Source: a virus (Duplodnaviria; Heunggongvirae; Uroviricota; Caudoviricetes). Taken from it: a DNA stretch of 14,230 bases. This document shows positions 1,294 through 4,200 of this stretch, piece by piece. How positions within the stretch are numbered: the first letter of the stretch is position 1; every line of letters begins with the position of its first letter. A program made the position numbers. The stretch is taken from the IMG/VR virus record IMGVR_UViG_2690316076_000003. One strand, 5' to 3'.

Positions 1294-4200
1294 TTATTGT
1301 GCGCTGCGGTGCGCGGTGAAATACCGGTACAAAAATGCCCCGCATCTGCGAGGCATTTTCCTGAAAGTCACTTGTTAAATTTCAGTGAAATTAAAATTAT
1401 TTTAAGCACTGCGTCCTGATGTATTCCTGCAGGTAGTTAACCTGCGCGGTTATCTTGTCGATTCCACCTCGGAGACGGTAATAATTGAGTTCAGCATCTG
1501 CTGTAAGTCCTGGGCTTTCTCCATCGCCCATGCTGCTGGCTCCGGTCGTTGACTTTGCACAGGTGGCGGAGACTTGCAGGCGCTTACGCCCAGCAGAAAC
1601 ATCAGCACGGAGACTTTCGATAGTCGCATTAGCATCAGCAAGCTCCTTTGTGTATCTGGCGTCGAGTTCTGCTACATCACGTTGACGCTTCTGCATGTCA
1701 GCGATGATGGATGTGGCTTTGTCGCGCTGGTCTTTGTAGGCGATGCCAGCCCTCTTTCAGTTTGTGTGTCAGCTTTTCCGCAAGGTCTGACGGCGACGCC
1801 GCCCTGACAACATCGTAATGTTTAATCGACATCGAATTTCTCCCGTGTAGAGGAACAGAGTTAAAAAGCCGGAAGCGGAATCAAATCACAGGATGACCAT
1901 CTGCCAGTGGCAGGTCATAAAAAAAAGGCTGCGCAATGCGCAGCCAGAACTCACAAGGAAAATGATAAAAGGAATAACACTAGTGATGTACGCATGGCGC
2001 CTCCCGCTAAGTTCTGCAATGATCAAACAGAACTCGCTACGTGCCCTTAAAACTCGATCATTTAGCCCCTCCAAGGAGGATTCACCATGCGGTTGATTTT
2101 TTAATAAACAGTAAACAAAAAAGTCAAGAATTATTCATTCTGTTCTTTCATCATCGGCCACAGCAATACCACAATGCCGCAGACCAGAGCGCCATCAGTC
2201 AGTACCAACATTATCCTGCTGGTGAAATCCATCATCACCATCACTAAAAGCAGGATCACAACAGCAAGCAGACACAGTTTATAAAACAATGTTCAGAAAA
2301 CGCATTCAGCATGCCTAAGGTTCTATTCCTACGAATAGCCAACTTGCAACTTAAAATATTATTTATGCAGCCAATTAAATTCTGGTCCTTACAATATCAA
2401 CCTGAAGATTCTTATCTTGTGCTGATTGATAAATGACAAACCTTTTACTACCTGCATTGAAAGAAGTAGACAAAACCAGACAATTATCATAACGAGCAAG
2501 AACATAATACCAACCATCATTATAATTAATCATTTCATATTCTTTCTTAAACTGTGGTTTGTAATATCCTGTCAGAAATGAAAAAAGCCAAAAATATGCC
2601 ACAAAAGCAATCATCACAATCTCAAAAAAATGTTTTTTTATAAATGGCTTATCATAGAAGCATGATACCGATAAAAATCGCCCATAAGATCTTATCGAAA
2701 TTGTAACCGCCAGCGCAATCGCTGCTGACAGTAGCAAAAGAGGTACCTGAATCTTCTGTCTCAATATAGAAAACTCAATAATTGCCGGCACAAACAATAA
2801 TTCCACAGCAAAATAAAGGCGAAATACATTTAGCTCTTGCATAGAATGTTTTCTTTTCACTGCGAAAAAGAATACAACACCAATACCCCAACCGATAAGA
2901 AATATAGCAATGACGATAACTGCAAAAAATAAACTTCTGGCAACATCATCAACACCTGCACCTACAATCCACCATGGGAAGCCGTAGTAAAAAGAAGTAC
3001 CCCATCCATAGAAATAAGCACTCCCCCATCCAAGGCATCCCATGTAGGCAATAAAAAGTGAAGAACTCCTGAGCAGCGCACCATCCTTCATAACCACCCC
3101 AATACAAGATGATAACATTGGCTTACAACTCATAACAAAAGCAATTCAATGCCGTCAAGAGGTTACAGGCTAAAAAAACTCTATTACATAGCAGCCAGCA
3201 TGTTTACCGTACAAGTACAACTCAGGGCATAAAAACTACTCGGCGGCAGGTTATTGAGACTCATCAATGACATGTAAAAAACGCCCATTATTGGTGTCAA
3301 GTTTCCCCAAAGTTATTCAAAAAGTCAATATTATGCCGTTAATATGTTGCCATCCGTGGCAATCATGGCGCTAACGTGTGATCGCATTCAAAATGTTGTC
3401 TGCGATTGACTCTTCCTTGTGGCATTGCACAACCAGAGCGTCATACAGCGGCTTAACAGTGCGTGACCAGGTGGGTTGGGTAAGGTTTGGGATTAGCATC
3501 GTCACAGCGCGATATGCGGCGCTTGCTGGCATTCTTGAATAACCGACGCCTTTACATCTTCCGCACTCTTTCTCAGCAACTCTCCCCCACAGCTCTGTTT
3601 TGGCTATATCAACCGCACGGCCTGTACCGTGGCAATCTCTGCATCTTGCGCCCGGCGTAGCGGCACTACGGCAATAATCCGCATAAGCGAATGTTGCGAG
3701 CACTTGCAGTACCTTTGCCTTAGTATTTCCTTCAAGCTTTGCCACGCCACGGTATTTCCCCGATACCTTGTGTGCAAATTGCATCAGATAGTTGATAGCC
3801 TTTTGTTTGTCGTTCTGGCTGAGTTCGTGCTTACCACAGAATACAGCCATTCCGAATCCGGCTTGTGATTGCGCCATCCCCATAGCAGCCATCACATCAG
3901 TACCGGAAAGAGAGTCAGAAGCCGTGGCCCGTGGTGAGTCGCTCATCATCGGGCTTTTTGGCGAATGAAATTTAGCTATGCTTTCGAGTCTCATGCGCCT
4001 TCTCCCTGTACCTGAATCAATGTGAGGTTTCCGCAGAACACTGCGCCAGTATCGATATACATCTGGTTGGCAAATTTGAGTGGTTTCACTGCTGGCGTAT
4101 GACCAAAGATGAACGTGTCCGCGCCTTTGATTTCTTTCACGATCCCGTCTTGTGAGTTGCTGATTCGTTCGCGGTTCCAGATTACCTGCTGATGATCAAC

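What the first reader, a model, noticed from the sequence alone, without database searches (positions are those of the whole stretch)
2375..3133. AT-rich multi-pass membrane protein in the Q-to-lysis cargo slot (where Stx phages carry stx)
Immediately downstream of Q and the pR'-like promoter, where lambda has S-R-Rz and where Stx phages carry toxin genes, there is instead a roughly 240-aa protein with about four transmembrane helices and an aromatic-rich C-terminal tail. It is not a lambda holin by sequence and I cannot assign it to a family. Its position predicts Q-dependent late expression. It could be a divergent holin-like or exclusion protein, an abortive-infection effector, or a lysogenic-conversion membrane protein.
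Basis: partly seen in the sequence, partly recalled or inferred. Interest (0 to 1): 0.6.

Follow-up and report, generated by a model that had tools for sequence, protein, structure and literature searches.

The report
Uncharacterised membrane cargo gene after Q
The ORF is a real, conserved gene for a five-helix inner-membrane protein of the already catalogued but functionally unknown STM1630/"TfpB" family; it is a cargo gene found directly behind the late-gene switch of many E. coli prophages and beside toxins and effectors in other gut pathogens, and it is not part of the lysis machinery.

Summary
Window 2375-3133 (- strand) is an intact, AT-rich ORF directly downstream of a lambda-type Q and a pR'-like promoter. 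The conserved start is M15 (3091), giving 238 aa. It is 100% identical to phage 434 gene CPT_434_68 ("putative membrane protein") and RefSeq WP_001302581.1. It belongs to Pfam PF27470 "TfpB" / RefSeq "STM1630 family" / PHROG 1521, all of unknown function. A confident AlphaFold model shows five TM helices plus a ~55-aa C-terminal beta module, with no informative fold match. It is not a holin: intact relatives carry their own holin-endolysin-spanin cassette further downstream, and phage 434B lacks the gene yet forms plaques. Homologs occur in many non-phage settings: Salmonella STM1630 beside sseJ, Shigella pINV, beside LT on an ETEC plasmid, after a pap operon, and among housekeeping genes in Neisseria and Pasteurella. 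In eight of eight phage or prophage copies inspected it is the first gene after Q, once directly upstream of stx2j. Best reading: a lysogenic-conversion moron whose conserved face is predicted to lie on the periplasmic side. The biochemical mechanism remains unknown. Already known as a gene and family; moderate-to-low interest.

The parts
3371..3994 (-). Lambda-type antiterminator Q gene (207 aa), immediately upstream of the cassette
   Evidence: Pfam PF03589 Antiterm E 6e-58; RefSeq 'antitermination protein' in identical loci
3293..3328 (-). pR'-like late promoter / Q-utilisation region
3231..3252 (-). Weak remnant of the tR'-like stem-loop plus T-run; homology with phage 434 begins about here
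   Evidence: Aligns with the annotated 434 terminator; folding -4.2 kcal/mol here against -13.3 in 434
3129..3158 (-). Predicted own sigma-70 promoter: -35 TTGACG (3158-3153), 15-nt spacer to the TG of an extended -10 TGtTATGAG (3137-3129)
   Evidence: The TTGAC...TGTTA block is conserved in lambda-Q, 434-type-Q, L022, UPEC pap-island and ETEC LT-plasmid contexts whose flanks are otherwise unrelated. Predicted only; not the site picked by the generic scan
3094..3100 (-). Shine-Dalgarno-like GGGGTGG for the M15 start
   Evidence: Sequence
2375..3091 (-). Coding sequence of the 238-aa STM1630/TfpB-family membrane protein (stop included)
   Evidence: Homolog lengths and alignment; intact copies and dN/dS; AF2 model pLDDT 84.6
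2375..3133 (-).
   Evidence: GenBank and RefSeq annotate a 247-aa version starting at M6
2131..2289 (-). Small DUF3927 ('TciB'-like) membrane ORF, frequent but not obligate neighbour
   Evidence: Annotated in 434 and RefSeq; about 3 kb away and paired with a TerB protein in L022; absent in L031, L032 and the non-phage contexts
1927..1945 (-). Strong intrinsic terminator closing the cargo unit (GGCTGCGCATTGCGCAGCC + T8)
   Evidence: Terminator scan, 8 pairs of which 7 G-C; a terminator is annotated at the corresponding position of phage 434 (correspondence by gene order, not aligned)
1397..1832 (-). Deletion scar: DUF1737 stub of the SASA esterase (1698-1832) abutting an Rz C-terminal fragment (1397-1696); holin and endolysin are missing
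   Evidence: Pfam DUF1737 and Phage_lysis; the otherwise 100%-identical prophage in NZ_CP148385.1 holds about 1.74 kb more here

Best explanation
The gene is a moron: a cargo gene of lambdoid prophages that encodes a 238-aa inner-membrane protein of the STM1630/'TfpB' family (Pfam PF27470, PHROG 1521). SHOWN: it is a real gene under purifying selection and is identical to an annotated phage 434 gene. In every phage or prophage copy inspected it is the first ORF after Q. Family members also occur on virulence plasmids, in pathogenicity islands and in chromosomes. It is dispensable for lytic growth. The confident model has five TM helices plus a small C-terminal beta module with no informative structural relative. 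INFERRED: topology is N-in/C-out, so the beta module and the most conserved block (the Gly/aromatic TM1-loop-TM2 hairpin and the outer end of TM5) face the periplasm. The gene is probably transcribed two ways: from its own predicted promoter in the lysogen, H-NS-silenced and induced under host-like conditions as STM1630 is, and by Q-antiterminated read-through from pR' after induction. PROPOSED MECHANISM (low confidence): the protein acts in the bacterial envelope for the lysogen by binding a conserved periplasmic or outer-leaflet bacterial component. This would tune behaviour in an animal host (gut colonisation, restraint of intracellular growth). It would not act on phage DNA entry or on lysis.
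For: Identity: 100% to phage 434 CPT_434_68 and to WP_001302581.1. All homologs carry PF27470, named TfpB. 46% identity, E 1e-70, to P0075, which is STM1630 by gene order and by the published knockout primer. RefSeq uses 'STM1630 family protein'. Cargo behaviour: 36% GC; terminator-like elements on both sides, and a -35/extended -10 block conserved across unrelated contexts. The identical allele follows two unrelated Q families, always 210-279 bp after Q. Absent from 434B, which is plaque-forming. The 434 authors class such genes as morons. Not phage-bound: found beside sseJ/steB in Salmonella, on 106 Shigella plasmids and between virA and spa40 on pWR100, divergent from eltAB, near STb, after pap/papX-type regulators, and among housekeeping genes in Neisseria, Pasteurella and Gallibacterium. 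Structure and topology: AF2 pLDDT 84.6, pTM 0.78. Family-wide K+R counts per loop are 2.1 / 0.05 / 2.5 / 1.0 / 3.4, and conservation is highest in TM1, loop 1 and the outer halves of TM2 and TM5, lowest in the cytoplasmic loops. Host-related biology of the homolog: STM1630 carries an H-NS site, is expressed in SPI-2-inducing medium and in macrophages, mutants are reported attenuated in calves and chickens, deletion raises intramacrophage replication, and it is absent from S. Typhi and promoter-dead in ST313. It is listed among genes co-regulated with SPI-2.
Against: No biochemical function is known for any family member. The Salmonella phenotypes are modest and partly irreproducible: hypermotility in a screen was not among the confirmed phenotypes after clean deletion. 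The E. coli promoter is only a conserved consensus match, and the Salmonella promoter appears to lie elsewhere, about 190 bp upstream of the ATG (primer compared with the alignment). Topology rests on the positive-inside rule, and the C-terminal module itself is slightly basic (8 K/R against 6 D/E). Strict placement as the first late gene could instead reflect a phage-directed late function. Some distant members sit next to restriction-modification, Fic and Bro-N genes, which is also compatible with defence. The AFDB fold library was unavailable, so annotated structural relatives may have been missed.
Confidence: 0.5

Rival explanations
1. Superinfection-exclusion or anti-phage defence protein. 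An inner-membrane protein made by the lysogen blocks DNA entry of incoming phages, or triggers abortive infection.
For: Prophage-borne, single gene, membrane-embedded, with a predicted own promoter. Multiple divergent alleles in E. coli, median two copies per carrying genome. One distant member lies beside a Type ISP/MmeI restriction enzyme, Fic and Bro-N genes.
Against: No PADLOC match. The family sits at housekeeping loci in Neisseria, Pasteurella and Gallibacterium and is widespread in Salmonella beside sseJ, represented by clusters of about 2,700 sequences. The presumed periplasmic face is the most conserved part from E. coli to Neisseria, whereas a surface contacting fast-evolving phage proteins would be expected to vary. 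STM1630 is regulated with virulence genes.
Confidence: 0.2
2. Accessory factor for a surface filament or secretion machine (type IV pili or pseudopili, chaperone-usher fimbriae), as the Pfam name 'TfpB' suggests. It would work like the TfpY/FimB pilin accessory proteins that help prime pilus assembly.
For: Pfam label TfpB and one GenBank annotation 'TfpB protein' on a Shigella plasmid. From memory, tfpB is an ORF in the Moraxella pilin-inversion locus. Distant members come mostly from piliated lineages, Neisseriaceae and Pasteurellaceae. Copies lie at the end of pap fimbrial operons and beside LT, which from general knowledge is exported by a type II system. Size and overall plan resemble TfpY-like proteins.
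Against: No pilin gene lies next to any member inspected in Neisseria, Pasteurella, Gallibacterium or the enterobacterial loci; the only N_methyl gene seen is 2 kb away in one metagenomic contig. TfpY/FimB proteins have three TM helices and a large alpha/beta periplasmic domain, not five TM helices plus a 55-aa beta module, and the TfpY paper does not mention TfpB. No named TfpB or Moraxella sequence was recovered in three homology searches.
Confidence: 0.12
3. Holin-like or lysis-timing protein, expressed as the first late gene to permeabilise or prime the membrane.
For: It is the first ORF after Q and pR' in 8 of 8 phage or prophage copies. It is a multi-pass membrane protein.
Against: No holin family match in Pfam or PHROGs. 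At 238 aa with five TM helices and a folded domain it is unlike holins. Intact relatives carry a complete class II holin, SAR endolysin and spanin set downstream. 434B lacks the gene and lyses. Homologs are abundant where there is no phage.
Confidence: 0.04
4. A hitch-hiking gene with no current function in this particular defective prophage.
For: This prophage is crippled by an O'-'ninI fusion and loss of the lysis cassette. The tR'-like element is degraded.
Against: The ORF is intact and 100% identical to copies in functional phage 434 and hundreds of genomes. Family-wide dN/dS is 0.06-0.19. The promoter-like block and the SD are intact.
Confidence: 0.08

Closest known systems
Phage 434 gene CPT_434_68 (UMO75332.1) / RefSeq WP_001302581.1
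   Same: 100% identical protein, the same position after Q, and the same downstream DUF3927 gene and terminator.
   Different: In 434 and O157/O145 prophages the upstream Q is the unrelated 434/Q82 type and the lysis cassette is intact. Here Q is lambda-type and the lysis genes are deleted. The databases annotate a 247-aa product; family alignment supports 238 aa.
Salmonella Typhimurium STM1630 (RefSeq 'STM1630 family protein')
   Same: Full-length homolog, 46% identity, 238 aa, the same five-TM plus beta-module alignment. AT-rich and H-NS-bound, next to horizontally acquired virulence genes.
   Different: Chromosomal and not in a prophage. Its mapped promoter seems to lie further upstream. 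It is the only member with any phenotypic data, and these concern infection, not phage biology.
Pfam PF27470 'TfpB' (name presumably from the Moraxella pilin-locus ORF tfpB; that origin is from memory)
   Same: Every homolog, including the 100%-identical cluster representative, carries the precomputed PF27470 hit.
   Different: I could not examine the name-giving protein, and no pilin linkage is visible for the members inspected. The model is absent from the local Pfam copy.
TfpY/TfpX/TfpZ/FimB-like pilin accessory proteins (PMC11841053)
   Same: About 235-245 aa, cytoplasmic N-terminus, N-terminal TM helices carrying the sequence conservation, periplasmic C-terminal domain, no recognisable catalytic domain.
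   Different: Three TM helices and a roughly 130-aa alpha/beta periplasmic domain, against five TM helices and a roughly 55-aa all-beta module. They are always encoded next to the major pilin gene; this family is not.
Late-operon morons of lambdoid phages (stx of Stx phages; bor and lom of lambda)
   Same: Cargo genes embedded in the Q-dependent late transcription unit, with deviant base composition and, by prediction here, an own promoter for expression in the lysogen. An allele lies in the same slot directly upstream of stx2j. The comparison with bor and lom rests on general knowledge.
   Different: Those encode a secreted toxin or outer-membrane proteins of known function. This is a polytopic inner-membrane protein of unknown function.
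Holins (lambda S105, S21-type pinholins)
   Same: Membrane proteins encoded downstream of Q.
   Different: Size, topology and folded domain differ, there is no family match, and the gene is dispensable for lysis. The real pinholin gene lies further downstream in intact relatives.

Membership tests
STM1630 family / Pfam PF27470 'TfpB' / PHROG 1521 | Significant full-length sequence similarity to family members | tested here: met
   PHROG 1521 E 2e-154 over the whole profile. 103 homologs, all tagged PF27470; STM1630 (P0075) E 1e-70 at 46% identity and 94% coverage. P0075 = STM1630 by gene order and knockout primer.
STM1630 family / Pfam PF27470 'TfpB' / PHROG 1521 | Direct match of this protein to the curated Pfam HMM at its gathering score | tested here: inconclusive
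   The local Pfam-A copy returns nothing because it lacks PF27470. The 100%-identical cluster representative P0001 carries the precomputed PF27470 hit.
STM1630 family / Pfam PF27470 'TfpB' / PHROG 1521 | Shared architecture: N-terminal AY.YGWG...YYG.PWW...IARSL block, further TM helices, C-terminal YY.L...IL beta module, about 235-270 aa | tested here: met
   Alignments A1, A2 and A4 from E. coli to Neisseria, Pasteurellaceae and metagenomic members. AF2 model pLDDT 84.6.
STM1630 family / Pfam PF27470 'TfpB' / PHROG 1521 | Homology to the name-giving Moraxella TfpB | not testable with these tools
   No Moraxella or TfpB-named sequence was recovered. Only the Pfam label and one GenBank product name link them.
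Moron (cargo transcription unit in a phage genome) | Present or absent between otherwise syntenic genes of related phages | tested here: met
   Present in 434 and absent in 434B. Found in only 3 of 50,697 phage records. The same allele follows unrelated Q families.
Moron (cargo transcription unit in a phage genome) | Base composition different from the surrounding phage genes | tested here: met
   36.2% GC against 44.1% for the window and about 50% for neighbouring Q.
Moron (cargo transcription unit in a phage genome) | Own promoter and terminator | tested here: inconclusive
   The terminator at 1945-1927 is strong. The promoter is a conserved -35/extended -10 consensus block, but no transcript data exist for the E. 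coli gene.
Holins | Match to a holin family, or small size with 1-4 TM helices and a short charged C-terminus | tested here: not met
   No holin hit in Pfam or PHROGs. 238 aa, five TM helices plus a folded beta module.
Holins | Required for lysis and paired with the endolysin | tested here: not met
   A separate class II holin directly precedes the endolysin in intact relatives. 434B lacks this gene and forms plaques.
Holins | Membrane permeabilisation or lethality on expression | not testable with these tools
   Needs an expression experiment.
Known anti-phage defence / Sie / Abi proteins | Match to a described defence-system protein model | tested here: not met
   PADLOC-DB: no hit at E <= 1. 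No Abi or Sie family in Pfam or NCBIfam.
Known anti-phage defence / Sie / Abi proteins | Protection against phage infection | not testable with these tools
   Needs plating-efficiency assays.
TfpY/FimB-like pilin accessory proteins | Three TM helices plus a mixed beta-sheet/alpha-helix periplasmic domain | tested here: not met
   The model has five TM helices and a 55-aa all-beta module, against the description in PMC11841053.
TfpY/FimB-like pilin accessory proteins | Encoded immediately next to the major type IV pilin gene | tested here: not met
   No adjacent pilin gene in any of about 20 loci inspected.

The most novel reading that the evidence does not exclude
The STM1630/TfpB family could be an unrecognised class of horizontally mobile envelope factor that travels with toxins and effectors (stx2j, LT, STb, SseJ/SteB, the Shigella T3SS region, pap). 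In lambdoid prophages it is wired, like Stx, to both lysogen-level and Q-dependent induction-level expression. Through its conserved periplasm-facing aromatic/glycine hairpin and SH3-like module it would bind a conserved envelope component and shift the bacterium between gut colonisation and intracellular or invasive growth. That would explain its loss or silencing in S. Typhi and ST313.
Probability: 0.2. Interest if true: 0.6.

Novelty: already known. Interest (0 to 1): 0.3.

Why it matters
As a sequence this is nothing new. The gene is annotated in phage 434 and in hundreds of E. coli genomes, and it has Pfam, PHROG and RefSeq family entries. What has not been assembled, as far as my literature searches reached, is the pattern. 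One orphan membrane-protein family of unknown function, with no fold match in the two libraries searchable here (the AlphaFold database library was unavailable), is the invariant first gene of the late operon in several lineages of lambdoid prophages, once directly upstream of stx2j. The same family sits beside LT, STb, SseJ, the Shigella entry region and pap operons. About 22% of complete E. coli genomes carry at least a fragment. If the family affects host colonisation or toxin-phage biology, it would be a widespread and overlooked lysogenic-conversion factor, and the Citrobacter rodentium homolog makes this testable in mice. If it does nothing measurable, it is one more moron of unknown function.

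Full report

CHECK OF THE OBSERVATION. ORF 2375-3133 (-) exists as described. It is AT-rich, at 36.2% GC against 44.1% for the window. It follows Q (3371-3994) and a promoter region at 3328-3293 that aligns with lambda pR'. It is a genuine gene. It matches PHROG 1521 at E 2e-154 and has more than 100 homologs. Thirteen DNA copies from different contexts are all intact, with dN/dS of 0.06-0.19 against the enterobacterial copies where dS could be estimated.

Four details need correcting.
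- Homologs are 237-238 aa and begin at the equivalent of M15. That ATG (3091) has a GGGGTGG Shine-Dalgarno sequence, while the first ATG of the ORF lies inside a predicted -10 element.
- The C-terminus is a folded beta module, not an aromatic tail.
- The gene does not replace S-R-Rz. Intact relatives have it in front of a complete lysis cassette. Here that cassette was lost by a separate deletion, which left a DUF1737 stub abutting an Rz fragment.

IDENTITY. The protein is 100% identical to phage 434 gene CPT_434_68, 'putative membrane protein', and to RefSeq WP_001302581.1, 'hypothetical protein'. The local Pfam, NCBIfam and PADLOC libraries return nothing. However, every homolog in the large protein collection carries a precomputed hit to a newer Pfam entry, PF27470, named 'TfpB'. 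Recent RefSeq annotation uses 'STM1630 family protein'. The Salmonella homolog P0075 (46% identity, E 1e-70) is STM1630 itself. The gene order matches (ABC transporter, DUF1294, SseJ-like gene, this gene, metal repressor, ADH, MCP), and the published knockout primer encodes NSSMLLAYLGGLGWG.

The family is small: 74 representatives at 50% identity among 1.8 billion proteins. It is found in Enterobacteriaceae, Pasteurellaceae, Neisseriaceae and a few metagenomic lineages.

ANATOMY OF THE CASSETTE (- strand).
- Q stop codon at 3371.
- pR'-like promoter at 3328-3293.
- A weak stem plus T-run at 3252-3231. It aligns with the strong terminator annotated in 434 (-13.3 kcal/mol there, -4.2 here), and homology with 434 begins about here.
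- A block TTGACG (3158-3153) ... TGtTATGAG (3137-3129). It is conserved upstream of copies in otherwise unrelated settings: lambda-type Q, 434-type Q, a variant of the 434 type (L022), a UPEC pap island and an ETEC LT plasmid.
- SD at 3100-3094, ATG at 3091, end of the stop codon at 2375.
- Downstream, a small DUF3927 ('TciB'-like) ORF at 2131-2289 and a strong terminator at 1945-1927.

This layout fits the classical moron pattern. The promoter is a prediction: no transcript data exist for the E. coli gene. The mapped Salmonella promoter appears to lie elsewhere, about 190 bp upstream of the start codon.

POSITION IN PHAGES. In all eight phage or prophage copies inspected, the gene is the first ORF after Q, 210-279 bp from the Q stop. 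The copies are the window, 434, L003, L022, an O157:H7 prophage, an O145:H28 prophage, L031 and L032. The upstream Q proteins belong to two unrelated families, with no BLASTP hit between them. Each family has two lineages: lambda Q and a 273-aa relative at 30% identity, and the 434 type and a variant at 77%. The identical allele follows both families.

In L031 the order is Q, this gene, tRNA-Ile, stxA2j, stxB2j, SASA esterase.

Among 50,697 phage records only 434 and phage 2B8 carry the gene. Among 5,426 complete E. coli genomes, 1,197 have a match and 767 have a full-length copy, with a median of two places per carrying genome. The DUF3927 neighbour is not an obligate partner. It is about 3 kb away and paired with a TerB protein in L022, and it is absent from L031, L032 and the non-phage contexts.

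NOT A LYSIS GENE. No holin family matches. Intact relatives carry a class II holin, an endolysin and spanins further downstream. In phage 434B this whole interval was replaced by DLP12 sequence (Q, nmpC::IS5, holin and so on). 434B lacks any homolog and is grown lytically as a clear-plaque phage.

NOT CONFINED TO PHAGES. Homologs are found in these settings:
- beside sseJ and steB in Salmonella;
- on 106 Shigella plasmids, and on pWR100 between virA and spa40 among IS elements;
- divergent from eltAB on the ETEC plasmid pUMNK88_Ent;
- near an STb gene in Klebsiella;
- directly after pap operons and their PapX/MarR regulators in extra-intestinal E. coli;
- on a Rep3 plasmid-like contig;
- among housekeeping genes in Neisseria arctica, Pasteurella and Gallibacterium;
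- beside a Type ISP restriction enzyme, Fic and Bro-N genes in a metagenomic contig.

Across the family the mean K+R counts are 2.1 (N-terminus), 0.05 (loop 1), 2.5 (loop 2), 1.0 (loop 3) and 3.4 (loop 4). By the positive-inside rule this implies an N-in/C-out topology with the beta module in the periplasm. Conservation is highest in TM1, loop 1 and the outer halves of TM2 and TM5, and lowest in the cytoplasmic loops. The nearly invariant block is AYMGCLGWGSAYFYGWGxSFYYGFPWW...DDVARSLF. I infer that the functional surface faces the periplasm or the outer leaflet. It is conserved from E. coli to Neisseria, so it more likely contacts a conserved bacterial component than a fast-evolving phage protein.

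WHAT IS KNOWN OF THE FAMILY. Only STM1630 has been studied, and only in passing.
- Its function is unknown, and an H-NS binding site lies in the gene.
- It is expressed in SPI-2-inducing medium and inside macrophages.
- Transposon mutants are reported attenuated in calves and chickens.
- Deletion in strain 4/74 increases intramacrophage replication.
- The gene is absent from S. Typhi, and its -10 element is destroyed in all ST313 isolates tested.
- It is listed among genes co-regulated with SPI-2 by virulence regulators.
- A hypermotile phenotype from a screen was not among those confirmed with clean deletions.

The 'TfpB' label presumably comes from an ORF in the Moraxella pilin-inversion locus. 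That is my recollection and I could not verify it. The characterised pilin accessory proteins TfpY, TfpX, TfpZ and FimB have a similar size and general plan. They differ in having three TM helices and a large alpha/beta periplasmic domain, and they are always encoded next to the pilin gene. Neither feature holds here.

VERDICT. Holin-like is essentially refuted. Exclusion or Abi is unsupported but not excluded.

The most likely account is a cargo gene with its own predicted promoter, silenced by H-NS, that encodes a polytopic inner-membrane protein acting on the bacterial envelope through a periplasm-facing site. It would be transcribed at a low level in the lysogen and strongly by Q-dependent read-through after induction. 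Identity and cargo status are secure. The mechanism is inferred and held at low confidence.

The gene and its family are already catalogued, so novelty is 'already known'. The residual interest lies in the unexplained and very regular placement behind Q, and in the recurring company of toxins and effectors.

Noticed in passing
window 3991-4647 (-): A 218-aa ORF whose N-terminus is replication protein O (Pfam Phage_rep_O, residues 22-115). Its C-terminus reads, from memory, like the end of the NinI Ser/Thr phosphatase, and it overlaps the Q start just as NinI does in intact relatives. This implies a deletion removing the rest of O, P, ren and ninB-ninG, so the prophage cannot replicate.
   Followed up: partly
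window 1397-1832 (-): A DUF1737 stub (the start of the SASA/NanS-p-type esterase gene) directly abuts the C-terminal 99 aa of Rz. Holin and endolysin are missing. The otherwise 100%-identical prophage in NZ_CP148385.1 holds about 1.74 kb more at this point.
   Followed up: partly
window 7117-7998 (+): A 293-aa, very AT-rich ORF (30-35% GC) overlapping the N stop codon (ATGA). It matches PHROG 12139 (unknown function) and has no Pfam or PADLOC hit. Its last 20 residues match the C-terminus of a 'Nun-like transcription termination factor' PHROG (E 7e-5).
   Followed up: no
window 5969-6445 (+): An ORF in the slot where lambda has rexAB, directly after the 434-type cI gene. It matches PHROG 2651 (unknown function). 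An internal start gives a signal-peptide-like N-terminus ([18 protein letters not shown]). RefSeq annotates a shorter hypothetical protein here.
   Followed up: no
window 11909-12511 (-): A second AT-rich multi-pass membrane protein (200 aa) on the opposite strand, between the int/xis end and exo. Only its C-terminal 88 aa match a PHROG (1416, unknown function). No Pfam, NCBIfam or PADLOC hit.
   Followed up: no
window 2131-2289 (-); L022 9301-9860: The small DUF3927 membrane ORF next to the target is called 'TciB' by the 434 annotators (phage P1 tci nomenclature). In L022 a DUF3927 gene overlaps the end of a TerB-family gene, which suggests a separate two-gene TerB-DUF3927 module that here has lost TerB.
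   Followed up: partly
L031 (NZ_CP076709.1) 2420-5794: A Stx2j prophage with the order Q, STM1630-family gene, tRNA-Ile, stxA2j, stxB2j, SASA esterase. The family member is the immediate upstream neighbour of the toxin operon in the late transcript.
   Followed up: partly
L001 (phage 434) 2501-3667; L029 and L030 952-2126: In 434 and in O157:H7 and O145:H28 prophages, an LpxR-family lipid A deacylase gene on the opposite strand sits where a lambda-type Q has been cut down to an N-terminal fragment, just upstream of the functional 434-type Q. This is another envelope-modifying moron in the same neighbourhood.
   Followed up: no
window 1-876 (-): The first 292 aa of an ORF that runs off the window end, at the position where the matching genome annotates the T3SS effector gene nleB2. 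That genome continues with nleC (partial), nleH and cif, so this defective prophage is an effector-carrying exchangeable locus.
   Followed up: partly
L012 (JAIITD010000172.1, 'MAG: Veillonella sp.'): A 3-kb contig binned as Veillonella carries a copy 100% identical to the E. coli gene. This is almost certainly a binning contaminant and not evidence of the family in Firmicutes.
   Followed up: no
window 8615-8673 (+): The lambda cIII thermoregulator RNA element (Rfam RF01804, 88.5 bits). This is ordinary for a lambda-like pL operon.
   Followed up: yes
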